A stretch of 64,000 nt of DNA from Actinomycetota bacterium. GTDB taxonomy: Bacteria > Actinomycetota > Actinomycetes > S36-B12. Of the stretch, positions 15,630-26,916 are shown one piece after another. The notes below the pieces were generated by a model that saw only the letters and a list, made by a program, of their open reading frames with translations, did no database searches and had not been told where the DNA came from. The position numbers were made by a program, and so were the translations under genes. The stretch spans positions 1,561 to 65,560 of the forward strand of contig JAUXRN010000075.1 of assembly GCA_030681835.1 (NCBI GenBank), read 5' to 3'. Each line of letters begins with the position of its first letter. Within the stretch, counting starts at the first letter, position 1.

Positions 15630-15702
15630 GTCCCCATCGTCTAGTGGCCTAGGACTCCGCCCTTTCACGGCGGCAGCACGGGTTCGAATCCCGTTGGGGA
15701 TA
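15630..15702 (+). tRNA. tRNA-Glu (anticodon TTC)
   Basis: Cloverleaf by eye: acceptor GTCCCCA/TGGGGAT, anticodon stem CCGCC/GGCGG with loop CTTTCAC, and T-arm GGGTTCGAATCCC. Confidence 0.9.
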
Positions 15703-15715
15703 CGCCTCACCACGA

Positions 15716-15789
15716 GGCCCCGTAGCGCAGTTGGTTAGCGCGCCGCCCTGTCACGGCGGAGGTCGCGGGTTCGAGTCCCGTCGGGGTCG
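15716..15789 (+). tRNA. tRNA-Asp (anticodon GTC)
   Basis: Acceptor GGCCCCG/CGGGGTC, anticodon stem CCGCC/GGCGG with loop CTGTCAC, and T-arm GGGTTCGAGTCCC. Confidence 0.9.
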
Positions 15790-15814
15790 CCCATCACGAA
15801 GCCGCAAGGCTTCG

Positions 15815-16480
15815 TCATGCCCGCCGGCCGGCCAGGCTCCCCCACCGCAGCGCGGCATCCCGGTCGTAGCCCCGCCCGGACGTCACGCCGAGGATCCACC
15901 TGACGGGACCGGGCACCTGGCTCCGCAGGGCGGCCGCTCCCGCCGGGTCCGCGGAGTCCGCCATCCACATGAGCGACGTGCTCGCGTCCTTCATGGACAT
16001 GCCCTTGCGGTAGTAGTTCTTCTCCAGGTACTTCCAGTCGGCGTCGTCGAGCGTCGCGACCACGACGGGCACGGAGTCACGCTCCTCGTGCTCGAGGTGC
16101 GGCAGCGTCACTCCCGCCATCTCCGCCACCGCGGCGCGCAGCGCCTCCCTGTTGGCGTCCGACCCGTCGGCGTCGTAGGCGGCCGCCGCCGCGACCGTGC
16201 GGTCGGACGCGACCACCATCGCGTCGTGCTCCGCGCCGTTCACGGCCGCCAGCTCGGCCGCGTCCGGCCGCTTCGCCACGACCCTCGGCCACATGCCCTC
16301 GTCCTCGCCCACGTGGTGGTGGTGCACCGTCCGCACCAGCCACGGGACGAACGCGCAGACGGCCGCCCGGCGCTCGGCCGGCAGCGGCCCGGCCAGCACC
16401 GCGTCGAGCCGGGCGAGGTCCCGCCGCAGGGCGTTGTGGATGACGGTGTTCATCGCCATGTGATCGGTGCCAGTGGCCAT
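15815..16480 (-). CDS. Hemerythrin (HHE cation-binding) domain protein
   Basis: It has the His/Glu/Asp-rich pairs typical of hemerythrin-like domains (HNALRRD, HHHHVGEDE, HLEHEERD). It lies between tRNA-Asp and tRNA-Phe. Confidence 0.75.
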   Translation of the reverse strand: MATGTDHMAMNTVIHNALRRDLARLDAVLAGPLPAERRAAVCAFVPWLVRTVHHHHVGEDEGMWPRVVAKRPDAAELAAVNGAEHDAMVVASDRTVAAAAAYDADGSDANREALRAAVAEMAGVTLPHLEHEERDSVPVVVATLDDADWKYLEKNYYRKGMSMKDASTSLMWMADSADPAGAAALRSQVPGPVRWILGVTSGRGYDRDAALRWGSLAGRRA

Positions 16481-16622
16481 CGCGTGCCTCCCAGGACGGT
16501 CGAATCGCCGCCGTCCGGTGAGCGCCCCCGCCCCGGATCCGCGGCGAAATCCCCTGCTATCGTCTGTCGCCGGAAGATACGCGCCTGCCGCCCTCAGCGG
16601 AAGGCCCTTCCGGGCTCCACAC

Positions 16623-16699
16623 GGCCAGGTAGCTCAGTTGGTACGAGCGTCCGACTGAAAATCGGAAGGTCGGCGGTTCGACCCCGCCCCTGGCCACCA
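16623..16699 (+). tRNA. tRNA-Phe (anticodon GAA), with encoded CCA
   Basis: Acceptor GGCCAGG/CCTGGCC, anticodon stem TCCGA/TCGGA with loop CTGAAAA, T-arm GGTTCGACCCC, and 3' ACCA. Confidence 0.92.
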
Positions 16700-16766
16700 C
16701 TCGAACCCCTGAAAGCCTTGCCAATGCTTATTCTTAGGTGAGGAACAAGGTCGGAGTTAGTGCGAC

Positions 16767-16831
16767 TTGACTGTGCTAAACCTGTGCGAATTGTCGTTTG
16801 GCAATCCAAGACTGTGCTAATGCTGTGCTGA
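16767..16831. repeat. Cluster of short direct repeats (GACTGTGCTAA x2 plus two partial CTGTGC copies) in the noncoding island edge
   Basis: GACTGTGCTAA occurs at 16769-16779 and 16810-16820. CTGTGCGAA occurs at ~16782 and CTGTGCTGA at ~16824. The local sequence is much more AT-rich than the genome. Confidence 0.6.
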
Positions 16832-16976
16832 GGACCTGTCGTCGAATGCACCTGCTCGGAGTCACCTCCGACCGACCAAGTCAGCCAGATACCCGCTGAG
16901 CCGCGGCTCGACCTTCTCCACGATCCAGGGATTAGGCCTGATCTGCACCGACCAACCGTGACCCCGGCCGCAACCG

Positions 16977-16997
16977 CCAGCATTCAGTGAATGCTGG
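16977..16997. repeat. Perfect palindrome CCAGCATTCA-G-TGAATGCTGG (10-bp arms)
   Basis: Read directly from the sequence. It lies ~70 nt downstream of the methyltransferase stop (minus strand). There is no U-tract, so it is not called as an intrinsic terminator. Confidence 0.6.
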
Positions 16998-17069
16998 CGA
17001 CCAGCCCTTGAGACGCCCGGGTTCGGGATGCGTGCCTCCGCTGTGTTCTGCACCTCGTCTCGTTGCCGC

Positions 17070-19088
17070 CTACGGCTGGAGCAGGCTGCGCCGTTCTTCA
17101 CTGAGACGAGCGATGCTTAGTGCGGCGTGATTCATGGCATCGACCGCGCTGCGGTACTGCTCCCCGATCTCGGCCAGAGCCTTCGCATGGTCCGTGCCCT
17201 TAACCGGCACAGGAATCAGAACCTCCGCCAGTTCAGTAGTGCGAATCCGGTTGTGCGATGAAGACGTCCCAGAAGTGAGGCTGCCAATCTGCCTTTGCAC
17301 AACTTCCGATTGGAGTAGGAAAGCCAAGCTGTAGAGCGTTAGGGGTGACCCAGCCTTCATCCTCATGATCTCGAACTCACTCGAACAGGTCATTGGCCTG
17401 CCTAGATCCGGAACGACGCAGATCCGGGGAATACGAGGGTTGATCTTCGACAGGAGTAGATCTCCGGCCGTCACCCGAGGACCTGGCGTCTTCGGCCTGT
17501 AGGCGAGAGCGGCATGCACATCCAGAAACCCCTCCCCCAGCACATGCTTGACCGAGATACAGGCTGGCTCGACTTCGCTGGCGCTGTGCTTCGAGGGTCG
17601 ACTGCCGACGAAATCCACCAGGAGATCAAGCTTGGTCATGTCGACACTGGCATCGGCACCTTGCGACCCAATGATTGCCACCCGCTCCGCGCTGAAGTGT
17701 CTCGGCGTCCATGCACCTCGCCAGATTTCACGGTTCGGCACCACGACAGCAGAGGGTCGCTCAAGCAGCACGGTGGCCGCCCTCACTCCCGCTTCCATGT
17801 CCTGCGCCTCGATGGCGTCCAGCAGCGCCGGCAACTCGTTCACACCAACAGGCTTCTTGACCAACACCCCCTTGCGGGAGGAGACATCGAAGCCGAGCTC
17901 CTCGACGACACCCATGACCGCTGGCTCGTCGCCTCGCGCCTTGCCCTTCTGCAGATACAGAACGACCGTCTTGGTCCGAGTACCAGCCTGCGCGAAAGTG
18001 GTCGCGGGTAGCTCGACCAGGGCGCGCAGCCTCACCTCGTCTTGCAGGTGGCGCCGCAACTTCGCAGCCATGCCCCGCGCCGACACGACGCCGTCTGGGA
18101 GGACGATCAGCATGCGCCCCCCTTCCCTCAGGAACTCGAGGTTTCGCTCCAGGAAGAGCAGCTCAGAATCGATCACACCACGATCCACCGTGGACGAGAG
18201 GAATGGTGCTGTGTTCCTTCCCTGCCTGACCTCCTCCGCCATGATTCGCGCCCCGAACGGCGGGTTGGTCAGAATCACATCCACCTTGCCGATCCAGTCG
18301 TCGAGAGGCGTGCCTTCCAGCGCCGAGTCGCCTTGCGAGACCTGATGGCCTCCAGCCTCGAACATCTGCATGTTGATCGTGCACAGGCGAACCATCCGAT
18401 CGACTTTGTCCTGGGCAACGAGTTGCACTTGCTCCCGCGCCAGCCAGCCCACCTGAGGTGCCAGGTCGTAGACAGTCGTCAGGAATGAACCCACTCCGCA
18501 AGTCGGATCCATGAAGACCCAGTCCCTGTCCGCGACCTGGGTCAGCTCGTCAGTGCGGCCAAGGTCTTCGAGAACCAATCGCACCATGAACTGAGTGACC
18601 TCTGGCGGTGTCAGGTACTGCGCATCCTCGATGTTCCCTCTGAAGTTGTCCCGAACGAAGTGACCGAATGCCTCGTTCAGCAGATCAAACGGATGACCCG
18701 CCTGACGCACGGCGAACGCATCGTCGACTGCCTGCCGGACGACGGCGACAAGTTGGCGGGCCAGTTGCTCGTCACCCGCACGCAGCACGAGGCTCGGCGA
18801 TGGACCGAAGATCGAACGACCTTCTCGATCGCGGTACTCCGGAAGTTCGGCGGTCTTCCGGAAGGCCACTCCTAGCCGTTCCAGAAGATCTGCGTCCTCA
18901 GCGTCCGGGAATTCGATGGGGTTCCCGGCCTTCTCGGCGACGTAGGTTGCGAACATCTTGGCGATCTCATCGAGCTTCGCATTGGAGTCGTCCAGACGCC
19001 CGCTTCGATGAAAGACCTCCCGGAGTTCACCCAGGCCGGAGTACACGCGGCCGTAAGCTTCAGCTAGCTGCCGATCCTCTGCCTGCAT
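17070..19088 (-). CDS. N6-adenine DNA methyltransferase (gamma class) fused to a single HsdS-like target-recognition domain
   Basis: ATG 19088 is preceded by GGAGGAG. It has motif I FMDPTCGVGSFL and motif IV ILTNPPFG. The C-terminal ~200 aa resembles a type I S-subunit TRD (LLSKINPRIPRI..., SEFEIMR..., SSSHNRIRTTELAEVLIPVP). Confidence 0.85.
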   Translation of the reverse strand: MQAEDRQLAEAYGRVYSGLGELREVFHRSGRLDDSNAKLDEIAKMFATYVAEKAGNPIEFPDAEDADLLERLGVAFRKTAELPEYRDREGRSIFGPSPSLVLRAGDEQLARQLVAVVRQAVDDAFAVRQAGHPFDLLNEAFGHFVRDNFRGNIEDAQYLTPPEVTQFMVRLVLEDLGRTDELTQVADRDWVFMDPTCGVGSFLTTVYDLAPQVGWLAREQVQLVAQDKVDRMVRLCTINMQMFEAGGHQVSQGDSALEGTPLDDWIGKVDVILTNPPFGARIMAEEVRQGRNTAPFLSSTVDRGVIDSELLFLERNLEFLREGGRMLIVLPDGVVSARGMAAKLRRHLQDEVRLRALVELPATTFAQAGTRTKTVVLYLQKGKARGDEPAVMGVVEELGFDVSSRKGVLVKKPVGVNELPALLDAIEAQDMEAGVRAATVLLERPSAVVVPNREIWRGAWTPRHFSAERVAIIGSQGADASVDMTKLDLLVDFVGSRPSKHSASEVEPACISVKHVLGEGFLDVHAALAYRPKTPGPRVTAGDLLLSKINPRIPRICVVPDLGRPMTCSSEFEIMRMKAGSPLTLYSLAFLLQSEVVQRQIGSLTSGTSSSHNRIRTTELAEVLIPVPVKGTDHAKALAEIGEQYRSAVDAMNHAALSIARLSEERRSLLQP

Positions 19089-19181
19089 GGCAACCGCTCC
19101 TCCGATGACAATCTCTATTGGCAATAATGATGGCCACTCTAGCGGAGTGGTCTGACAGCGCTGACGACCCAGAATCGACAC
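19089..19181. promoter_or_regulatory. Divergent promoter/operator region between the M gene and the C-R operon (candidate C-box elements)
   Basis: It contains the inverted repeat TATTG-G-CAATA (19116-19126). It also contains CTGAC-AGCG-CTGAC with the core palindrome CAGCGCTG (19152-19165). The operator role is inferred only. Confidence 0.3.
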
Positions 19182-19397
19182 ATGGGGGTAACCGAGGACG
19201 TAGCCGCAAGAATCCGCAACGCTCGACTGCGTCGAGGCCTGTCGCAGGCGTCGGTAGCCAAGCTGGCAGGACTCTCCCGAACGCACTACGGCCAATTGGA
19301 GCGCGGCCAGTCATCGCCGACCGTCGTGACTCTCGAGGCGGTCGCCAACGCACTCGGCGAATCACTGCCTGAGCTCCTTGGGGAGCGTGCATCATGA
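19182..19397 (+). CDS. Controller (C) protein, XRE-type HTH regulator of the R-M system
   Basis: 71-aa HTH (LSQASVAKLAGLSRTHYGQLERGQSSPT). It lies immediately upstream of the nuclease gene, overlapping it by 4 nt, and is divergent from the methyltransferase. Confidence 0.75.
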   Translation: MGVTEDVAARIRNARLRRGLSQASVAKLAGLSRTHYGQLERGQSSPTVVTLEAVANALGESLPELLGERAS

Positions 19398-20041
19398 CGA
19401 GCGCACCCGAAGAACGCCTCGCGGAGGCCTTGCGACTCCTGGATCACCACCGTGAGGCATTTCATGCAGTGGTGGATGTCGCCTCGGAGACGGGGCACCC
19501 GGTTCCAATGGACACACGTGGTTGGTCCCAGATCATCGTGAGTGTCCTGACCGGCGTCCACGGGCTGGATCGCAAGAAAGGCGCCGATCTTGACGACGGT
19601 TCGGACGTCAAGGGCGCCAACACGTGGCACGCCATAGACACCCCACGGTTCAACGGAGTGGTCAAGGCTGGCACCCAGGCCGACGCATCCGACAGCATCG
19701 CCAGCCTCGACGCCATGCCCTACCTGTACTTCGTTCTCTGGGACACGTCGCCTCGTGGCCGCGATCGATGCCGAATCTGGGTCGTGCGTCCTGACACTGA
19801 TCCCGTGTTCCGGGCCATGGCTGATGACTGGTACGAGCAGCGGGCCATCGGCACCATCAAGTCGAACAACTTCCAGCTGCACCCTCCTCGGGGCAAGGAC
19901 TCTGACGAGATTCGGAACAGTTGCGGCAACTTGTTGTACCCGCTCTTCTTTGCCGCCGAGGTGGGTTCCAGCGACGAGTACGAGATCACAACCTACGATC
20001 CCGCTGTCCTAGTAAGCGGCATTTGTCGTCCATCTCGCTAG
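19394..20041 (+). CDS. Putative type II restriction endonuclease (PD-(D/E)XK-like)
   Basis: ATGA overlap with the C gene. It has the candidate catalytic motif GADLDDGSDVKGAN (D...D-x-K). The position is classic for the R gene of a C-R operon. The family was not identified. Confidence 0.6.
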   Translation: MTSAPEERLAEALRLLDHHREAFHAVVDVASETGHPVPMDTRGWSQIIVSVLTGVHGLDRKKGADLDDGSDVKGANTWHAIDTPRFNGVVKAGTQADASDSIASLDAMPYLYFVLWDTSPRGRDRCRIWVVRPDTDPVFRAMADDWYEQRAIGTIKSNNFQLHPPRGKDSDEIRNSCGNLLYPLFFAAEVGSSDEYEITTYDPAVLVSGICRPSR

Positions 20042-20203
20042 AGCGCCCGGGCGACTGCTATGTGTGCCCATCGTCCAGCTTGCACGACAACGGCCTCCCC
20101 AATTAGCAGTGAACGGACCAGTTCAGGGCTGACCCCGGTACTGCTGCTGGAGGCGGCCGCTCGTTGCTGTTCGGACGCCAAATCCGTCCACGCTCTGGGT
20201 CCT

Positions 20204-20515
20204 TCAGGGTGCGGATTGTGGGTCGACGATGGGTAACTCCACGTCAACTGTCAAGATGCCGCGATCCACGTAGCCGCCCCACTCCATCGCACTCATTCCG
20301 GATTCCACATACGCTTCACCAACAACTTGCACGGTGCCGTCGGGGAGCGTGGTCGCCCCGGTGATCTCATAGCCACCGATGTCGCCGTTGTCGTCGAAGA
20401 ACGCCTCGACGGCGGCCGTCACCTGTTCCTGGGTCACTCGGACGCGGACGGCGAAGGGTATCGCCATTAGGTCGGAGTCCGCGCCCGACTCTTCCTCGCC
20501 ACCTTCAACGTTCAT
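20204..20515 (-). CDS. Small acidic hypothetical protein (103 aa), downstream partner of the 410-aa gene
   Basis: ATG 20515 is preceded by a strong RBS (AGGAGGAG, 6-7 nt upstream). The protein is Asp/Glu-rich with no recognisable motif. Confidence 0.65.
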   Translation of the reverse strand: MNVEGGEEESGADSDLMAIPFAVRVRVTQEQVTAAVEAFFDDNGDIGGYEITGATTLPDGTVQVVGEAYVESGMSAMEWGGYVDRGILTVDVELPIVDPQSAP

Positions 20516-20693
20516 GTCGTCTCCTCCTACTTCACCTTGTCATCGAATTGAGCCCGGTCCACGCCGTTTGTGGCCGCGAGGCTTTCAAGTATTCAGCTAT
20601 CTCCTGCCAGATTCCGGGCAGACGATCACCTGTTCGTCTTGCTTCCAAAGCGCCTCCGCAGGTACTCGCCGCGTTGCCTAACTGGGATTCTGC

Positions 20694-21926
20694 CTATGAA
20701 TGTGGCATCGGAGTGGGACTGACAAGGTCGTCGAGTTGTACGAGCCACTGTGTTCCGAGTGCCGCTGCGGCTCGCTGCTCGAGTTCGGACACCTGCGAAG
20801 TGCGCTGCCAGTCCCAGGCTTGGTTGAGGTCATCGCGGCTGGGTTGCCGAGGCGTTCGGGGCCGCTTCAACCCGGCCCGGTCACACAGGAGCGCCAGCGA
20901 TAGGTCACCGAAAACCCATGTGCCGCGGAGACCACCAAAGCCGTAGGGCGAGGAATAGTAGACCCCGCCGTCGAGAAAGGCGTGGCACTCCGAGATCGAG
21001 GAGTACATGCTGACACCGGAACTGTTGTTGACCGCCTGCAGGTTCGCCAAAGCCATGAACACCCGCTGGAGGATGGCTTCGTCGGCGTTCGCTTTGAACG
21101 CGTACACGTGTGAGGCCCCACGGGAGCGCGAGAAGGCATGTGACCACAGCAACACGGGGCGATCCTCCCTGAGGAATCCCTCGGCAGTGAGATCCCGGGC
21201 AAGGATGCCCTCACCACGGAAGGCGCAAGCTTGATCGAGCGTGACGCCTCTCTGGGCGTAGCCGGTCGCGGACAGGTAGCTGAATCCCGCTTCGACCCAC
21301 GGCTCGACCTGCTGGGGATTCGCGAAGCCCTTCGACAGAATGCCGGCATCCTTTGCGGCAAAGCCCGCGTCACGCCACGAGAGCCAGACCGGCAGGGCCC
21401 AACCGAAGTGGTCGAACCACTCCTCGACGGCGTAGTCACCGAAGCCGGCGTCGAATGCAGCAAGGATCTGGTCCGCGGTAAGCATCGTCTGCAGAAGACG
21501 GCTACTCACCGTCACCTTGCCGCCACGGTTCGCCCAGTCGACGGCGAGCCGGGCGAACTCGTCCAACGAGTAGTGCTCGATCCAGGCGAGGTGGTCCCGG
21601 TTGAGGTGGTTCACCCCTAGTTCGCGCAATTGCATGGCGGCAACGGGCTCAATCAACGAGTCGTACATGGTCGCGTCCCACCTCATGCGGTCGCCCGGCG
21701 GGGGCATGCCCGCGGCTAGCCATTCCTTCGCCCTATCGATGCTCATTCCGCTTCCACGGCAGTGATTGGCGCTGTTCAAGGTGAAGCCGATGTCCCGCCA
21801 CGCCGATGCCTCTTCAGGGGCGTAGTCCATGCGGCCCCACTGGAACGCTTCGTCCTCGTCGAAACCGGCCGCCGCCCACGCGGCGAGTTCCTGCGGTGTC
21901 TGTTTGGACGTGTAGGTGCTGCCCAC
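20694..21926 (-). CDS. Hypothetical 410-aa protein with degenerate W-x-x-A-G-F repeats; no recognisable domain
   Basis: GTG 21926 has a G-rich RBS. Repeated motifs are LAAWAAAGF, ASAWRDIGF, AKEWLAAGM, ILAAFDAGF, LSWRDAGF and VEPWVEAGF. It is divergent from the Nudix gene. Confidence 0.7.
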   Translation of the reverse strand: MGSTYTSKQTPQELAAWAAAGFDEDEAFQWGRMDYAPEEASAWRDIGFTLNSANHCRGSGMSIDRAKEWLAAGMPPPGDRMRWDATMYDSLIEPVAAMQLRELGVNHLNRDHLAWIEHYSLDEFARLAVDWANRGGKVTVSSRLLQTMLTADQILAAFDAGFGDYAVEEWFDHFGWALPVWLSWRDAGFAAKDAGILSKGFANPQQVEPWVEAGFSYLSATGYAQRGVTLDQACAFRGEGILARDLTAEGFLREDRPVLLWSHAFSRSRGASHVYAFKANADEAILQRVFMALANLQAVNNSSGVSMYSSISECHAFLDGGVYYSSPYGFGGLRGTWVFGDLSLALLCDRAGLKRPRTPRQPSRDDLNQAWDWQRTSQVSELEQRAAAALGTQWLVQLDDLVSPTPMPHS

Positions 21927-22070
21927 GGTCGTTGCCCCTTCCCCCGGGTCCCACTATGTACCGGTCGTCTGGCGGTCTCCTGCTGATTCGCCCGGAGGGA
22001 GCCGATGCCCACACAGCACAGCCCGCCCTGTCGCACTGAATCTGTAAGCTCCAGGGACGAGGGAGGCACG

Positions 22071-22466
22071 GTGACAAGGCGGATTCGCGTGGTGGGGGCC
22101 GCGGTTCTCCACGACGGACTCATACTCTGCGCTCAACGTGGCCCACAAGGGAACCTGGCTGGCCTTTGGGAGTTCCCAGGAGGAAAGATCGAGCCAGGGG
22201 AATCACCCGCAGTTGCGCTTGAGCGCGAGATACGCGAGGAACTGGACTGCTCGGTCGAGGTTGGGCGCGAGATCACAACGACGACCCACGAGTACGACTT
22301 CGGTGTCGTCACTCTGACGACGTTCTACTGTCGCCTCGTGGCCGGTACGCCGACGCTAACCGAGCACGTAGCCCTCAAGTGGCTGCGACCAGACGAGCTC
22401 GACACCATCACTTGGGCGCCTGCCGACCTCCCGGCGGTGGCCATGATCCAGGCGGATCACGCCTGA
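22071..22466 (+). CDS. MutT/NudG-like Nudix hydrolase ((deoxy)nucleoside triphosphate pyrophosphohydrolase)
   Basis: GTG 22071 follows GGGAGG. Nudix box GGKIEPGESPAVALEREIREELD, preceded by LWEFPGG. The stop overlaps the helicase start (TGATG). Confidence 0.85.
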   Translation: MTRRIRVVGAAVLHDGLILCAQRGPQGNLAGLWEFPGGKIEPGESPAVALEREIREELDCSVEVGREITTTTHEYDFGVVTLTTFYCRLVAGTPTLTEHVALKWLRPDELDTITWAPADLPAVAMIQADHA

Positions 22467-25366
22467 TGGAAAGCGATCTCATCTGGGCCGATCGCTTCAA
22501 CCGCGACATCCAGTACGGCTATGTGGGAAGCCAGGCAGCGGGGCCAGGGCACTACAACCCAAGGCTGGTGCTCAACCAGGACGGGCGAACCGTCGAACAC
22601 GCACTCGTCGAGGAACTCGAGCTAGGCGGCGACTTCACGTTCTCGGTTGCCTTCATCTCCGCCGGAGCCATAGCGCAGCTGAAGCAGCACCTGCTTGAAC
22701 ACAGGGGCAATGGGAGAATCGTCACGTCAGACTTCCTCCGCTTCAACAATCCGCGGGCCTTCGCAGAGCTACTGAACCTCAAGAAGCACCTGGGCATCGA
22801 CGTCAGACGCCACGCAGCCGAGGGGTTCCATCCCAAGGGCTACATATTCCAACGGCCCCGGAGTGTTACTGCCATGATCGGCAGCTCGAACCTCACGAAC
22901 CGGGCTCTATCACAGAACCACGAATGGAATCTCAAAGTCTCGGCGGCCGCGGGCAGTGACCTTGCCGCACAGCTGATGAGGCTTCTCGACGATCAGATCG
23001 CCGCGTCCGAGCCACTGACTCAAGAGTGGATCGACGAATACGCGGCCACGTACGTCGCGCCCCCGAGTCGCGAAATAGGAAGGACCACGCTTCCTGGAGA
23101 GCCTTCGCTCGGTTCCCCAATCGAGCCCAACAGCATGCAGCAAGATGCTCTTCTCGCTCTGGATCTCGCCAGGGCACAGGGAAACAAACGCGCGATCGTC
23201 ATCTCGGCCACCGGAACAGGGAAGACGATGCTCTCCGCGCTGGACGTGCGTTCAGTAGACCCGAAACGCATGCTCTTTGTCGTCCACCGAGAGCAGATTC
23301 TTGCTCGCACGATTCGGGAGTATCAGCGGGTACTGCAAGGTCCTCCCACGAACTATGGCCTGCTCACCGGAACAAGCAAGCAACTGGACCGACGCTACGT
23401 CTTTGCCACCATCCAGACGCTGTCGCAAGAGGCCACTCTCACTTCCTTGCCATACGACGCCTTCGACTACGTCATCATCGACGAGGCGCATCGAGCTGGG
23501 GCTGCTTCGTATCAGCGAGTGATCGAGAGGCTCCGGCCTAGCTTTCTGCTTGGTATGACCGCAACGCCGGAACGAACTGACGGGTTCAACGTCTTTGAAC
23601 TCTTCGACTACAACGTCCCGTACGAGATTCGACTCAGCAAGGCGCTCGAAGCAGAGATGCTGTCGCCTTTCCACTACTACGGAATCTCCGACGTGGTCTA
23701 CGAAGGCGCCGGTACGACCACAGATGACACACCTCTTCACCTGTTGATTTCCCCCGAACGAGTGGAACATCTCATTCGAGCACTGGAGCTTTACGGTCAG
23801 GCAGGGGTGGCTCCACGAGGCCTGATCTTCTGTAGCCGCCGGGAGGAAAGCCACAGACTCGCCGAAGAGCTGAACCAACGCTCCCTGCGGGGCCGGCCTC
23901 TGCGAACAGTCGCACTTACCGGCGAGGATTCCATCGAAACCCGCGAACGCCGGGTCGCCCAACTGGAGGCTGGAGAGCTCGACTACATCCTCACTGTCGA
24001 CGTATTCAACGAAGGCGTCGATATCCCGAGCCTGAACCAAGTCGTCATGCTTCGGCAGACGCAGTCCGCAATCGTGTTCGTTCAGCAGTTGGGTCGAGGT
24101 TTGCGCCTCGCCGAGGGGAAGGAGTACCTGGCGGTCATTGACTTCATCGGCAACTACACCAACAACTTCCTCATTCCGATCGCACTGTTTGGCGATGACT
24201 CCCTTAACCGCGAGTCGCTTCGAGAGCGCTTGAATGAGGCAGTTGAAGGGGGCGCTCTCCCGGGCCTGTCAAGCGTCAGCTTCGACGAGATCGCTCGTGA
24301 CCGAATCCTGGAGTCGATCAAGCAGACGCAGCTCGACAGCATGGCGAACCTGAAGAACGCCCTCCTAGCGATGAGAAACCGAGTGGGCGGTGTGCCCAAA
24401 CTCTGGGACTTCTACCGCTTCCGCTCAGTGGATCCGGTGCTACTGGCCACGAAGAAGGAGCATTACCCCGCGCTAGCGCAATCCCTGCTTCGAGTCGATT
24501 CCATGCTTAGCTCGAGTGAATCGCGGGCTCTGGATCTCCTCTCACACGAGGTTCTCGCAAGCAAGCGCATGCACGAGTTCGTCCTCCTTGAGCTGCTCCT
24601 CGCGACTGGGGCCGTCACTTTGTCCGATATCCGCGATGCATTCGCCTTGGCTGACATTCCAAGCGATCCCTCACACATCACAAGCGCCGTCGACACGCTC
24701 ACGTTGACGGGTTACGCGCAGGCAGATGTCACCCGGTATCAGACCGGCATCGCGGAACGCCATGACGACACGGTGCGACTTACTGAGGAGTTTCGAGTCG
24801 CGTACGCCGAATCATCCGCCCTGAGTGACGCTGTTGCTGATCTCGTGAAGACCGGCAAGGAGCTCACTCGCGACCGCTATGAGGCGGGTCTTCCGTTCAC
24901 GTCGGGTATGCAGTACTCCCGACGAGATGCCGCCCGCATCGTCGGATGGCCTCGCGCCTTTGCCTCGACCATCTATGGCTATAAGACCGACGAGGCCACC
25001 GGCGTTTGTGCGATCTTTGTGACGCTTCACAAGTCCAGCGAAATCGACGCGAGCACAGCGTATGAAGACCAGTTGCTGGACCCGTCAACGATGCGGTGGT
25101 TCTCCAGAAGTAGGCGGACTCTGGAGAGTAGGGAGGTGAGGCTGGTCGTGGACGGCTTGGTTCACGTGCACGTATTCGTCAAGAAGGACGACGCAGAGGG
25201 CAGCGACCACTACTACCTGGGGCCAGCCACGGCAACCGAAGCCGAGGAAACGACCATGCCGGACGGCGACGGAAGGCCCCTGTCGGTGGTGACCATGCTG
25301 CTCAAATTCGACCAACCGATCAAACAGGGCCTATTCGACTACTTCCATCCGCTCCACGTTGGCTGA
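22466..25366 (+). CDS. PLD-family nuclease domain + SF2 (DEAH) helicase + large C-terminal domain (DUF3427-type architecture)
   Basis: PLD HKD motif (FHPKGYIF...IGSSNLT). Helicase motifs ATGTGKT (I), IIDEAHR (II), MTATPER (III) and QQLGRGLR (VI). The C-terminal ~330 aa carry no motif I can name. ATG 22466 was chosen over the upstream run-on. Confidence 0.85.
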   Translation: MESDLIWADRFNRDIQYGYVGSQAAGPGHYNPRLVLNQDGRTVEHALVEELELGGDFTFSVAFISAGAIAQLKQHLLEHRGNGRIVTSDFLRFNNPRAFAELLNLKKHLGIDVRRHAAEGFHPKGYIFQRPRSVTAMIGSSNLTNRALSQNHEWNLKVSAAAGSDLAAQLMRLLDDQIAASEPLTQEWIDEYAATYVAPPSREIGRTTLPGEPSLGSPIEPNSMQQDALLALDLARAQGNKRAIVISATGTGKTMLSALDVRSVDPKRMLFVVHREQILARTIREYQRVLQGPPTNYGLLTGTSKQLDRRYVFATIQTLSQEATLTSLPYDAFDYVIIDEAHRAGAASYQRVIERLRPSFLLGMTATPERTDGFNVFELFDYNVPYEIRLSKALEAEMLSPFHYYGISDVVYEGAGTTTDDTPLHLLISPERVEHLIRALELYGQAGVAPRGLIFCSRREESHRLAEELNQRSLRGRPLRTVALTGEDSIETRERRVAQLEAGELDYILTVDVFNEGVDIPSLNQVVMLRQTQSAIVFVQQLGRGLRLAEGKEYLAVIDFIGNYTNNFLIPIALFGDDSLNRESLRERLNEAVEGGALPGLSSVSFDEIARDRILESIKQTQLDSMANLKNALLAMRNRVGGVPKLWDFYRFRSVDPVLLATKKEHYPALAQSLLRVDSMLSSSESRALDLLSHEVLASKRMHEFVLLELLLATGAVTLSDIRDAFALADIPSDPSHITSAVDTLTLTGYAQADVTRYQTGIAERHDDTVRLTEEFRVAYAESSALSDAVADLVKTGKELTRDRYEAGLPFTSGMQYSRRDAARIVGWPRAFASTIYGYKTDEATGVCAIFVTLHKSSEIDASTAYEDQLLDPSTMRWFSRSRRTLESREVRLVVDGLVHVHVFVKKDDAEGSDHYYLGPATATEAEETTMPDGDGRPLSVVTMLLKFDQPIKQGLFDYFHPLHVG

Positions 25367-25495
25367 AGGGTCAGGTACCGAAGCCGGCTTCCGGGCCGAA
25401 AGACGCGAGGCGGCCTTCCGGATCCGTGTGCCACTCCCGTGCGTCGGACTCGGGGGCTAACGTGACCAGCAGCACTTAGCCTGCGCGGGGGTTCC

Positions 25496-26596
25496 ATGTC
25501 GACACTGCACGTAACAGACGCTCGAGCCGTCGAGAAAGCCCTCGACGAATTTGACCAAATAGGCCGCGACGAGTTCCTTCGCCGATATCGGTTTGGCAGG
25601 GCCCGCGCCTACTTCATTGTTCGCAACGGCAAGAAGTACGACTCCAAGGCCGTACTCGGTGCTGCGCATATGTTCCAGTTCGGCCGAGCCCTGCCACACG
25701 AGGAGTTCAGCGGAGGCGACGCCGGCGCAGCCCGCGAGCTTCGCCAACTCGGATTCACCGTGGTCGGGCCCGAAAGCACTCCGGTCCAAGCCGAGGTGAG
25801 GCCACAGACATTCATCCTTACCTGGAACTCGCTCAAGTGGGACTGGAACACGGGTGGCCGCCCGAACGCCATCGAGGCGACCGCGCTAGGTGAGCGGGTG
25901 CCGGACCGCTGGGCCACGGGAGTCCGCAGCGGAGGTATCCGGCCAGGTGACCGCGCGTTCCTATTGCAGCAGGGACCCCTTCGCGGCCTAGTCGCATCGG
26001 GCTGGTTCACCTCTGAGGTCTTCCAGGAACCGCACTGGGACGGAGCCCCGAGCAAGTTCGCCAACTACGCGAGCGTGTCTTGGGACAGAGTCTTGTCAGA
26101 CAACGCGATGCTCGATATCGACGACATCAAGGATCAAGTCCCCGGGTTGAATTGGGACCGTATCCAAGGCTCGGGGGTTCAGCTGCCGGCAGACGGGGCG
26201 CTCCAACTCGAGGCGCTGTGGACGGGCGATGAGCCGTTCACCAGCCCTGAGGAGGAGGGCGCCGAAACTCTCACTGAGGGGTCCCTCGCCAGGGTCACTG
26301 TGAATCGCTACGAGCGAAACCCGGCCGCGCGAGCTGCATGCCTCGCACACTACGGATCAGTGTGCGCCGTATGCGACATGTCATTCGGCGACCGTTACGG
26401 AAGCATCGGCGAGGGCTTCATACACGTGCATCACCTAAGGGAGATTTCGACGATCGGCCAGGAGTACACGATCGATCCCATCGTGGACCTGCGCCCGGTG
26501 TGCCCAAACTGCCACGCAATGCTGCACAAGCAGACACCGGCCTTCACTCCCGAGGAGCTCAGACGCTTACTCCTCGCAGAGGATCACGAGTTATGA
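25496..26596 (+). CDS. McrA-like type IV (modification-dependent) HNH endonuclease with a PUA/EVE-like middle domain
   Basis: C-terminal HNH (CAVCDMSF...IHVHHLREIS...PVCPNCHAMLH). The middle domain is EVE/PUA-like (FILTWNSLKWDW...GDRAFLLQQG...GLVASGWF). The N-terminal module DEFDQIGRDEFLRRYRFGRARAYFIVRNGKKYDSKAVLGAAH is common at the N-termini of type IV enzymes. Confidence 0.8.
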   Translation: MSTLHVTDARAVEKALDEFDQIGRDEFLRRYRFGRARAYFIVRNGKKYDSKAVLGAAHMFQFGRALPHEEFSGGDAGAARELRQLGFTVVGPESTPVQAEVRPQTFILTWNSLKWDWNTGGRPNAIEATALGERVPDRWATGVRSGGIRPGDRAFLLQQGPLRGLVASGWFTSEVFQEPHWDGAPSKFANYASVSWDRVLSDNAMLDIDDIKDQVPGLNWDRIQGSGVQLPADGALQLEALWTGDEPFTSPEEEGAETLTEGSLARVTVNRYERNPAARAACLAHYGSVCAVCDMSFGDRYGSIGEGFIHVHHLREISTIGQEYTIDPIVDLRPVCPNCHAMLHKQTPAFTPEELRRLLLAEDHEL

Positions 26597-26747
26597 GGGA
26601 GCGTCTCGGACCCTGTGGACAACGGCTCTTTTCTGCCCGCACTTCTGTCCTTTCTTTGTGGTTCTCAGTGCGTCTTGGTGAGTCTGGGTGCGCGAAAACT
26701 TCTCAATACCAACAACTACCAGAGTCCGATTCTCGAGGGGGAGGGTC

Positions 26748-26789
26748 TGAGAATTGGAAGGGGCTGCGTTTCGCCCACCCCTGGCCACC
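26748..26789 (+). repeat. Degenerate direct repeat of the tRNA-Phe 3' half (att remnant / pseudo-tRNA fragment)
   Basis: tgagaattggaaggggctgcgtttcgcccacccctggccacc aligns with tRNA-Phe tgaaaatcggaaggtcggcggttcgaccccgcccctggccacc. The terminal 12 nt are identical. Confidence 0.65.
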
Positions 26790-26916
26790 GCTCTCCCCTC
26801 ACGAGGCCTCTCTGAGGCCGGGCCCTACGCATCGCCGGTCGCCTCCCCCGTGCGGCTATACCGGCACCCGGGTCAATCGGCTAGACGCTGCCGGCAGGTT
26901 CGGTCGGTGTCGGCTG

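What the first reader, a model, noticed from the sequence alone, without database searches (positions are those of the whole stretch)
20204..21926. Unrecognisable two-gene module (410-aa W-x-x-A-G-F repeat protein + 103-aa acidic protein) embedded between defence systems: candidate novel system
Seen:
- Two same-strand genes sit exactly between the R-M module and the Nudix/helicase-nuclease module of the island.
- The 410-aa gene starts with GTG preceded by a G-rich RBS. The 103-aa gene has a near-perfect AGGAGGAG RBS.
- The large protein has at least six degenerate repeats of an amphipathic motif ending in aromatic/AGF: LAAWAAAGF, ASAWRDIGF, AKEWLAAGM, ILAAFDAGF, LSWRDAGF and VEPWVEAGF.
- These repeats are followed by a non-repetitive C-terminal ~170 aa (…VYAFKANADEAILQRVF…GGVYYSSPYGFGGLRGTWVFGD…).
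- The small protein is strongly acidic (MNVEGGEEESGADSD…).
- I recognise no catalytic motif, NTPase loop, TM helix or HTH in either protein.

Established: genes of unknown function embedded in defence islands are strongly enriched for new defence systems.

Inference: the repeat array could be a sensor or scaffold, and the acidic partner could be a DNA mimic, an inhibitor or an effector partner. This is the most likely place for an undescribed system in the window.
Basis: partly seen in the sequence, partly recalled or inferred. Interest (0 to 1): 0.8.

Follow-up and report, generated by a model that had tools for sequence, protein, structure and literature searches.

The report
Two unrelated orphan genes in defence island
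Both genes are real and match no known family, but they are not a conserved pair: the 410-aa protein belongs to an undescribed family that turns up alone next to restriction, McrBC, BREX and ADP-ribose conflict genes, and the small acidic protein travels separately beside restriction enzymes.

Summary
Two minus-strand genes, A (410 aa, 20694-21926) and B (103 aa, 20204-20515), lie between a type II R-M module and a Nudix/type IV module. They sit in a 10-kb, low-GC island at tRNA-Phe. Both are under purifying selection and hit nothing in Pfam, NCBIfam, PHROGs, PADLOC or PDB.

The "two-gene module" reading fails. No locus encoding an A relative carries B, and no B locus carries A.

A has two parts:
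- An array of about 13-16 short helices with 13-residue period (TPEEAxxWxxAGF).
- A new ~130-aa C-terminal domain (W..FSRSRG / MFSS / FLDGG / YGFG / C.R.GL..PR).

The repeat alone also occurs in kinases, UvrD helicases and WD40 proteins. The C-domain family sits beside R-M genes, McrBC, BREX and, in distant members, inside or fused to parts of published "ARG-centric" anti-ADP-ribosylation systems.

My best reading is that A is a stand-alone conflict-system protein of an undescribed family, with a variable recognition array and a conserved output domain. B is an independent, very acidic (pI 4.05) small protein that recurs beside restriction endonuclease genes.

Function is inferred only from genomic context; no fold or catalytic assignment was possible.

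The parts
20694..21926 (-). Gene A, 410 aa: a stand-alone protein of an undescribed repeat + C-domain family
   Evidence: ORF. Homologues at 61%, 46% and 33-37% identity. dN/dS 0.24. No library hit.
21174..21899 (-). A residues 10-251: array of about 13-16 short helices with 13-residue period (consensus T-P-E-E-A-x-x-W-x-x-A-G-F). There are two regular blocks (aa 10-74 and 150-251) around a less regular helical stretch.
   Evidence: Motif count and lag-13 periodicity. AF2 helices at pLDDT 70-90. Unit consensus and acidic charge, pI 4.67, net -15. Related arrays in 120 of the 155 retrieved proteins (the best 150 hits of the exhaustive search plus the earlier A and B sequences).
20772..21164 (-). 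A residues ~255-385: conserved C-terminal domain with no known relative. Motifs are W261..FSR267SRG, MYSS310, FLD319GG, Y328GFGG, GTW337VFG, ALALLC348DRAGL..RPR.
   Evidence: Domain boundaries by hmmsearch. 25-sequence alignment with G320, Y328, G329, G340, C348 and L367 invariant, and W261, R267, D319 and P356 in >=90%. No PDB sequence relative. AF2 confidence is poor here.
21935..21945 (-). G-rich ribosome-binding region upstream of the GTG start of A
   Evidence: Sequence read.
20204..20515 (-). Gene B, 103 aa: very acidic small protein with a variable acidic N-terminal tail and a conserved core (ESGMSAMEWGGYVDRG). It is not a conserved partner of A.
   Evidence: ORF. Two homologues at 74% identity. 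pI 4.05. dN/dS 0.12-0.15. Model is beta-alpha-beta-beta-(alpha)-beta, pLDDT 58.
20522..20529 (-). AGGAGGAG ribosome-binding site of B
   Evidence: Alignment of B upstream regions.
20516..20693 (-). 178-bp A-B spacer with no terminator-like or promoter-like signal. Co-transcription is possible but unproven.
   Evidence: Pattern scan. RNA fold z = +1.2. The spacer is not conserved with B upstream regions elsewhere.
16700..26793 (.). Context: a ~10-kb low-GC island next to tRNA-Phe, bounded on the right by a degenerate copy of the tRNA-Phe 3' half. No integrase is seen. It carries a type II R-M, B, A, Nudix + DUF3427 type IV enzyme and an HNH type IV enzyme.
   Evidence: tRNAs. Repeat. GC 61.4% against 71.4%. 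Gene families.
26625..26770 (+). Context: conserved non-coding island-end segment (GTGnnTCT iterations followed by a pseudo-tRNA-Phe half). It is shared with L001/L002, where it lies directly upstream of the A homologue.
   Evidence: blastn and alignment. No Rfam, phage or plasmid match.

Best explanation
A and B are two separate, independently mobile orphan genes packed side by side in a tRNA-Phe defence island. They are not a two-gene system.

**A.** A is a stand-alone member of an undescribed family of conflict-system proteins built from two modules. The first is a W-x3-G-F alpha-helical repeat array. I infer that it is the recognition or adaptor surface, more likely for a protein or a modified macromolecule than for the DNA backbone. 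The second is a conserved ~130-aa C-terminal domain. I infer that it is the output module, with D319, Y328, C348 and R267 as candidate ligand-binding or catalytic residues. Shown here: gene reality, architecture, family membership, and recurrent placement beside R-M, McrBC, BREX and ARG-centric (anti-ADP-ribosylation) genes. Inferred: that A acts in phage or mobile-element conflict, and the sensor/output division of labour.

**B.** B is a very acidic ferredoxin-like small protein found within ~160 bp of a restriction endonuclease gene in every locus seen. I infer that it modulates or accompanies restriction enzymes. This is speculative.
For: **The pair is not conserved.**

**A stands alone.** In L001 and L012 its neighbours are convergent or divergent.

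**C-domain family contexts.**
- Window: type II R-M and two type IV enzymes.
- L001: two MTases and an Mrr-helicase.
- L012: HNH, McrB, McrC, a PDC-S11-like gene, SbcCD-like genes and ARG-DSPc.
- L016: two type II MTases.
- L019: BrxA/B/C, with BrxC at E = 6e-299.
- L006-11: an operon of Nudix | ARPP-1, TY-Chap1, ARG-DSPc, C-domain gene. This matches the ARG-centric systems of PMC9503650.
- TY-Chap3 is fused to repeat + C-domain proteins in P0044 and P0123.

**Independent modules.** The domain order is shuffled between family members.

**Repeat array.** Its charge ranges from -16 to +8 across the family. It is reused in kinases, UvrD helicases, WD40, S1 and MerR proteins.

**Selection.** Both genes are under purifying selection.

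**B context.** B lies next to hsdR in L003/4 and L005, and next to the MamI-like REase in the window.
Against: - There are no functional data, and no fold or catalytic assignment for the C-domain. AF2 pLDDT is below 50 with a 3-sequence alignment, and no PDB or BFVD match was found.
- Only about seven informative loci exist. The window and L001 share the same island end, so they are not independent.
- L017/18, L015 and L020 show no defence genes, though these contigs are short.
- The family is absent from 185,579 GTDB species genomes, IMG/VR, INPHARED and PLSDB by the scans used. The sample is therefore metagenomic and sparse.
- The B loci amount to two independent contexts only. L003, L004 and L005 are syntenic, with hsdR 97% identical.
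- B was never searched exhaustively.
Confidence: 0.45

Rival explanations
1. One reading: A and B form one two-gene defence system, with the repeat protein as sensor or scaffold and the acidic protein as partner, inhibitor or effector.
For: - The genes are adjacent, on the same strand, and have no detectable terminator in the 178-bp spacer.
- Both are orphan genes in a defence island.
- L015 has an unrelated but also acidic 100-aa ORF just upstream of an A homologue.
Against: - No B homologue was found in any A-family locus searched for it (L001/2, L006-11, L012/13, L014, L015, L016). No A homologue was found in the B loci.
- B has its own strong RBS, and its upstream region is not conserved.
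- Homology between the window and L001 ends within A's last ~9 codons, just before its stop codon, so it never reaches B.
Confidence: 0.07
2. A is a backbone or maintenance gene of a family of tRNA-Phe-associated islands, for example an architectural, recombination-directionality or regulatory factor. It is not a defence effector.
For: The window and L001 share only A and the ~150-nt island-end segment. All the surrounding R-M and type IV cargo differs. In L001 the segment lies ~90 bp upstream of A. No integrase is visible in either island.
Against: - More distant homologues sit in unrelated settings (McrBC island L012, BREX L019, ARG operon L006), and blastn did not detect that segment in any locus held at the time (L001-L019) other than L001/L002.
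- A shows no similarity to recombinases, excisionases or HTH proteins.
- The repeat array is acidic, which is unusual for a DNA-architectural protein.
Confidence: 0.13
3. One or both genes are counter-defence genes of a mobile element. B would be a DNA-mimic or anti-restriction protein, and A an inhibitor or decoy.
For: - B has net charge -17 over 103 aa, with an acidic tail conserved in charge but not in sequence.
- B is always beside a restriction endonuclease gene.
- The island has the marks of a mobile element.
Against: - Neither gene matched IMG/VR, and INPHARED phages held no match to A (B was not searched there). PLSDB held no match to B and only one weak partial match to A's repeat region (28% identity, E 1e-3).
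- B's model is a generic ferredoxin-like fold with no match to Ocr, ArdA or other mimics.
- The genes sit in chromosomal islands next to resident R-M genes, not in the leading region of a transferring element.
Confidence: 0.12
4. They are passenger genes with no conflict-related role. Their island location would reflect hitch-hiking in a recombination hot spot.
For: - There are no recognisable effector motifs.
- Several short homologue contigs show no defence genes.
- The repeat is a general adaptor found in many signalling proteins.
Against: Six of seven informative C-domain-family loci carry R-M, McrBC, BREX or ARG-centric genes within a few kb. Fusions to TY-Chap3, a domain defined from conflict systems, also argue against this.
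Confidence: 0.18

Closest known systems
ARG-centric predicted anti-ADP-ribosylation systems (Iyer, Burroughs, Anantharaman & Aravind, Viruses 2022, PMC9503650): Nudix/WYL regulator, ADP-ribosylglycohydrolase + rhodanese-phosphatase, ARPP, TY-Chap1-3 chaperones
   Same: - A distant relative with only the C-domain (P0090) is the gene directly downstream of, and overlapping, ARG-DSPc in an ARPP-1/TY-Chap1 operon beside a Nudix gene.
- Two repeat + C-domain proteins carry an N-terminal TY-Chap3 domain.
- An ARG-DSPc gene lies 9 kb from the A homologue in L012.
   Different: - The paper does not describe this C-domain or the repeat.
- Window A has no TY-Chap domain.
- The island has no ARG, phosphatase or ARPP gene.
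- The adjacent Nudix is a 153-aa MutT-like PDC-S07 protein. It appears coupled to the type IV enzyme through a TGATG stop/start overlap, on the assumption that the enzyme starts at Met30. It is not a Nudix-HTH regulator.
Pfam PF25296 'Decapeptide repeat region'
   Same: It matches the same kind of helical array in 16 of 69 repeat-only relatives and in 1 of 39 in the C-domain set. P0016 scores 48.1 bits against a cut-off of 45.
   Different: A itself has no hit at E <= 0.1. The most canonical arrays examined individually (P0011, P0012, P0014) are not matched either. The period here is 13 residues, not 10. I found no literature on this family.
Single-protein defence candidates built as repeat sensor + effector (for example TPR/WD40-bearing Avs/STAND proteins, or PADLOC 'PDC-S' single-gene candidates)
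   Same: A is a stand-alone gene in defence islands. It combines a variable repeat array with a conserved terminal domain.
   Different: A has no NTPase and no recognisable nuclease, TIR, SIR2 or protease effector. It has no PADLOC hit.
Tandem helix-hairpin-helix arrays (Topo V) and the Pol X 'fingers' HhH element
   Same: Both are short helices joined by G-hydrophobic turns. Weak sub-threshold PF10391 hits occur in 5 relatives. Weak Foldseek matches were found to Topo V, TdT, TALE and mTERF.
   Different: All matches are non-significant (Foldseek E >= 0.76, probability <= 0.18). A's array is acidic (pI 4.67), unlike DNA-backbone binders. No PDB sequence match exists.
Acidic DNA-mimic anti-restriction proteins (Ocr, ArdA), compared with B
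   Same: B is small, has an extreme negative charge and lies next to restriction genes.
   Different: There is no sequence or fold similarity. B's model is ferredoxin-like (beta-alpha-beta-beta-alpha-beta), and its best Foldseek hits are generic ACT/PII/RRM folds at E >= 0.04. It is not found in IMG/VR viral contigs or PLSDB plasmids.

Membership tests
Conserved two-gene (A+B) system | Homologues of the two genes co-occur as neighbours in other genomes | tested here: not met
   No B was found in the A-family loci searched for it (L001/2, L006-11, L012/13, L014, L015, L016). For L017/18 only the small ORFs upstream of A were compared with B. No A was found in B loci L003-5.
Conserved two-gene (A+B) system | Operon organisation (short spacer or translational coupling, shared promoter) | tested here: inconclusive
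   The spacer is 178 bp and B has its own strong RBS. No terminator or promoter was detected by simple scans.
ARG-centric anti-ADP-ribosylation system (PMC9503650) | ADP-ribosylglycohydrolase core gene in the neighbourhood | tested here: not met
   No ARG domain is present among the island ORFs. It is present only with distant relatives in L006 and L012.
ARG-centric anti-ADP-ribosylation system (PMC9503650) | Coupled phosphatase (rhodanese-phosphatase, HD or calcineurin-like) and TY-Chap, vWA or SseB chaperone | tested here: not met
   None is present in the window island, and A has no TY-Chap hit. TY-Chap3 fusions occur only in P0044 and P0123.
ARG-centric anti-ADP-ribosylation system (PMC9503650) | Nudix-HTH or WYL-HTH regulator | tested here: not met
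   The adjacent Nudix is 153 aa with NUDIX_4 only and no HTH. It appears coupled to the DUF3427 enzyme.
Pfam PF25296 Decapeptide repeat region | Score at or above the Pfam gathering threshold (45 bits) | tested here: not met
   A has no hit at E <= 0.1. Only some relatives match.
Known anti-phage defence families (PADLOC-DB v2.0.0) | Match to any defence or candidate (PDC) profile | tested here: not met
   There are 0 families for A and for B at E <= 0.1.
Helix-hairpin-helix DNA-binding arrays | Significant sequence or structure match to HhH domains, and a basic DNA-binding surface | tested here: not met
   Foldseek E >= 0.76. No Pfam HhH hit for A. The array has pI 4.67 and net charge -15.
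DNA-mimic anti-restriction proteins (Ocr/ArdA), for B | Sequence or fold similarity to a known mimic | tested here: not met
   No family hit. Foldseek gives only generic ferredoxin-like folds, and the model pLDDT is 58.
DNA-mimic anti-restriction proteins (Ocr/ArdA), for B | Inhibition of restriction enzymes by occupying their DNA-binding groove | not testable with these tools
   This needs restriction-alleviation and binding assays.
   No PHROGs, NCBIfam or Pfam hit. No phage tblastn hit for A. BFVD matches are non-significant.

The most novel reading that the evidence does not exclude
The conserved C-terminal domain of A is a new enzymatic or ligand-binding effector fold. It would be used by a previously unrecognised single-gene anti-phage system whose W-x3-G-F repeat array senses a phage protein or an ADP-ribosylated host target. 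Distant family members would be the missing effector or partner of ARG-centric systems, for example a cryptic ADP-ribose-directed enzyme paired with the glycohydrolase. B could separately be a new class of restriction-enzyme modulator.
Probability: 0.22. Interest if true: 0.8.

Novelty: categorically new. Interest (0 to 1): 0.55.

Why it matters
If A protects against phages, it would define a new defence family built from two undescribed modules. One is a 13-residue helical repeat that is also wired to kinases and UvrD helicases in hundreds of uncharacterised bacterial proteins. The other is a new ~130-aa domain.

A would also give an experimental handle on the still purely predicted ARG-centric systems that are proposed to counter viral ADP-ribosylation.

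B offers a small, tractable candidate for a new restriction-associated factor.

There is a methodological lesson too. Adjacency inside one defence island is not evidence for a multi-gene system, and comparing neighbourhoods split this "pair" into two independent units.

Tried and rejected
**Family libraries.** A and B gave nothing in Pfam, PADLOC, PHROGs or NCBIfam.

**Structure.**
- AF2 of A with a 3-sequence alignment modelled the repeat array well, but the C-domain had pLDDT below 50.
- Foldseek against PDB and BFVD found nothing significant.
- I therefore could not re-model the C-domain with the deeper 25-sequence alignment built later.

**PDB sequence and profile searches.** The C-domain profile, the A repeat region and a canonical repeat array all gave nothing.

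**Collection scans for more loci all came back empty.**
- GTDB genomes, for A and B.
- JGI metagenomes, for A and B.
- IMG/VR, for A and B.
- INPHARED phages.
- PLSDB, where the only hit was a weak repeat match in a Nonomuraea chromosome.

**Third word-indexed search.** Run with the C-domain profile, it returned only 6 proteins.

**Literature.** I found nothing on the repeat, the C-domain or PF25296. The supplements of PMC9503650 are not held.

**Ideas considered and rejected.**
- HhH-like DNA-binding array: matches are non-significant and the array is acidic.
- ADP-ribosyltransferase R-S-E motif in the C-domain: R267 and the S309-S310 spacing are suggestive, but there is no conserved Q/E-x-E and no profile match.
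- PTP-type C-x5-R loop: the spacing does not fit.
- PD-(D/E)xK, HNH or GIY-YIG nuclease: the motifs are absent.
- A conserved small partner gene upstream of A: the upstream ORFs are unrelated to one another.
- An RNA element in the spacer or the island end: none found.
Full report
**1. Observation**

ORF listing shows two minus-strand genes: A (20694-21926, GTG start, 410 aa) and B (20204-20515, ATG start, 103 aa).

Their neighbours are as follows:
- To the left: an N6-adenine MTase, a 71-aa HTH controller protein and a MamI-like REase.
- To the right: a 153-aa Nudix protein (PADLOC PDC-S07, E 4e-51) and a PLD-helicase-DUF3427 type IV restriction enzyme (E 2e-202).
- Further right: a 366-aa HNH protein, which is another type IV-like enzyme.

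The Nudix stop codon and the Met30 ATG of the DUF3427 ORF overlap as TGATG. If the enzyme starts at Met30, as the PADLOC alignment suggests, the Nudix gene belongs with that enzyme and not with A.

The RBS claims hold.

The repeat is statistically real. There are 10 matches to [WFY]xxxG[FMYWVIL], against 1.24 +/- 1.06 in shuffles, and lag-13 periodicity has z = 4.1.

B has 20 acidic and 3 basic residues and pI 4.05. Neither protein has a TM-like segment. Neither matches Pfam, PADLOC, PHROGs or NCBIfam at E <= 0.1.

Both are real genes. Homologues align end to end, and dN/dS is 0.24 for A and 0.12-0.15 for B at dS > 1.

**2. The island**

GC drops from 71.4% to 61.4% between about 16.7 and 26.8 kb. 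tRNA-Glu, tRNA-Asp and tRNA-Phe lie at 15630-16699. A degenerate copy of about 50 nt of the tRNA-Phe 3' half lies at about 26745-26793.

The genes therefore sit in a ~10-kb tRNA-Phe-associated island. I found no integrase in it.

**3. Is it a pair?**

A word-indexed search of 5.8 billion proteins found only two relatives of each gene. I fetched their contigs.

*A relatives:*
- The 61%-identical A homologue (L001/L002) is followed by two convergent MTases and an Mrr-helicase. There is no B.
- A relatives found by the exhaustive profile search (P0007, P0008, P0009, the P0003 clade and others) also lack B.

*B relatives:*
- The 74%-identical B homologues (L003/L004, L005) lie divergent from a type I hsdR gene. 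There is no A.

tblastn and B-profile hmmsearch over all six-frame ORFs of the loci then held found B only in L003-5, and A only in A loci. For L017/18 only the small ORFs upstream of A were compared with B. L019 and L020, fetched later, were not searched for B.

The 178-bp spacer has no detectable terminator or promoter, so co-transcription here cannot be excluded.

**4. What A is**

*Repeat array.* AlphaFold models residues 10-250 as about 16 nine-residue helices joined by four-residue G-F turns, at pLDDT 70-90. The C-terminal 150 residues are poorly modelled.

*Family size.* An exhaustive HMM search of 1.84 billion representatives found 804 hits. Most match only the repeats.

*The repeat elsewhere.* The unit consensus is T-P-E-E-A-x-x-W-x-x-A-G-F. 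The array occurs in Ser/Thr kinases (12 of 69 surveyed), kinase-repeat-UvrD helicase fusions, and WD40, S1 and MerR proteins. It overlaps Pfam PF25296 "Decapeptide repeat region" in 16 of 69 proteins, but not in A itself.

*The C-domain.* Of the 155 retrieved proteins (the best 150 profile hits plus the earlier A and B sequences), 32 also carry the C-terminal domain. A 25-sequence alignment defines these motifs: W..F.RSR, MFSS, FLDGG, YGFG, G.W..G and AL.L.C.R.GL..PR. In A numbering, G320, Y328, G329, G340, C348 and L367 are invariant. W261, R267, D319 and P356 are present in at least 90%.

*Modularity.* The C-domain can lie on either side of the repeats, so the two are independent modules.

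*No known relative.* The C-domain has no PDB relative by profile search. Foldseek of the A model against PDB and BFVD found nothing significant.

*Charge.* The repeat array is acidic in A (pI 4.67, net -15) and ranges from -16 to +8 across the family. This argues against a generic DNA-backbone-binding (HhH-like) role and fits a variable recognition surface better.

**5. Context of the C-domain family**

| Locus | Neighbouring genes |
|---|---|
| Window | Type II R-M and two type IV enzymes |
| L001 | Two MTases and an Mrr-helicase |
| L012 | HNH, McrB, McrC, a divergent PDC-S11-like gene, HD, SbcCD-like genes; ARG-DSPc further on |
| L016 | Two type II MTases 3.4 kb away |
| L019 | TY-Chap3 + C-domain + repeat protein, divergent from brxA/brxB/brxC (BrxC E 6e-299) |
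| L006-L011 | C-domain-only gene overlapping the end of ARG-DSPc, in an ARPP-1 / TY-Chap1 operon beside a Nudix gene |
| L014 | An integrase nearby |
| L015, L017/18, L020 | Short contigs, uninformative |

The L006 operon matches the "ARG-centric" systems that Iyer et al. 2022 predicted to counter viral ADP-ribosylation. That paper mentions neither the C-domain nor the repeat. TY-Chap3 is fused to the family in P0044 and P0123, above the Pfam threshold.

One caveat applies. The window and L001 share A plus a ~150-nt island-end segment (window 26625-26770) with GTGnnTCT iterations and a pseudo-tRNA-Phe half. Their homology breaks exactly where the window carries the 4.7-kb Nudix/DUF3427/HNH block. 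These two contexts are therefore related islands with swapped cargo, not independent observations.

**6. What B is**

B has a variable acidic N-terminal tail and a highly conserved core. Its model is beta-alpha-beta-beta-(alpha)-beta at pLDDT 58. Foldseek gives only generic ferredoxin-like matches (ACT, PII, RRM) at E >= 0.04.

In all loci B lies within about 160 bp of a restriction endonuclease gene. It is convergent with the MamI-like REase here and divergent from hsdR elsewhere. The hsdR loci are syntenic, with hsdR 97% identical, so there are only two independent contexts.

B's upstream DNA is not conserved between contexts.

**7. Interpretation**

Best explanation (confidence 0.45): A is a stand-alone protein of an undescribed conflict-system family, with a repeat recognition array and a conserved output domain. 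B is an independent, restriction-associated acidic protein.

Rivals:
- True two-gene system: 0.07.
- Island backbone gene: 0.13.
- Counter-defence or DNA mimic: 0.12.
- Neutral passengers: 0.18.

Only architecture, selection, family membership and neighbourhoods are shown. The roles are inferred.

**8. Novelty and score**

No public copy carries a name other than "hypothetical protein". No library or paper that I could search describes either module.

In sequence and domain terms, A lies outside every known kind of system, so I rate it categorically new. However, it is a context-only candidate from a sparse metagenomic family, and the specific claim of a two-gene system is wrong. Interest is 0.55.

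Noticed in passing
window 16623-16699 and 26745-26793: An intact tRNA-Phe gene sits at the left edge of the low-GC island, and a degenerate ~50-nt copy of its 3' half sits at the right edge. These are att-like boundaries of a ~10-kb island with no integrase gene.
   Followed up: partly
window 26625-26770; L001 302-432; L002: A ~150-nt non-coding segment with three or four GTGnnTCT iterations, followed by the pseudo-tRNA-Phe half, is 74% identical to the DNA immediately upstream of the A homologue in L001/L002. Homology between the two islands consists of this segment plus gene A. The window has a 4.7-kb Nudix/DUF3427/HNH block inserted between them. The iterations could be arm-type recombinase sites. 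No Rfam, phage or plasmid match was found.
   Followed up: partly
window 25496-26596 (+): A 366-aa protein has a C-terminal HNH domain and an N-terminal region matching PADLOC type IV methyl-directed restriction enzymes (E 4e-17). It is a third restriction-type function in the island.
   Followed up: partly
window 22464-22468: The Nudix (PDC-S07) stop codon overlaps an ATG of the DUF3427 type IV enzyme as TGATG (Met30 of the listed ORF). This suggests translational coupling of Nudix and the helicase-nuclease.
   Followed up: partly
L019 3-3974 (-) and 4253-5908 (+): A TY-Chap3 + C-domain + W-x3-G-F repeat protein lies divergent from a BREX operon (brxA, brxB, brxC), with an 81-aa gene in between.
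   Followed up: partly
L006 7102-13355: The operon runs ARPP-1, TY-Chap1, ARG-DSPc, C-domain-only gene (overlapping the ARG-DSPc stop by 62 nt), then two unannotated genes of 443 and 465 aa. A divergent 327-aa Nudix gene lies upstream. The three downstream genes are not part of the published ARG-centric description.
   Followed up: no
L015 374-676 (+): A 100-aa strongly acidic ORF lies 130 bp upstream of an A homologue. It is unrelated in sequence to B. This may be coincidence, or it may be an analogous acidic companion.
   Followed up: partly
P0011, P0012 (search hits): These ~1,600-aa proteins combine an N-terminal Ser/Thr kinase, about 35 W-x3-G-F repeats and a C-terminal UvrD-type helicase. 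This uncharacterised architecture uses the same repeat.
   Followed up: no
window 17070-19295 (-) and 19182-19397 (+): The mechanically listed MTase ORF (TTG start) overlaps the divergent controller-protein gene by ~110 bp. The true MTase start is probably downstream (the Pfam match begins at residue 204), leaving a shared C-protein-regulated promoter region.
   Followed up: no
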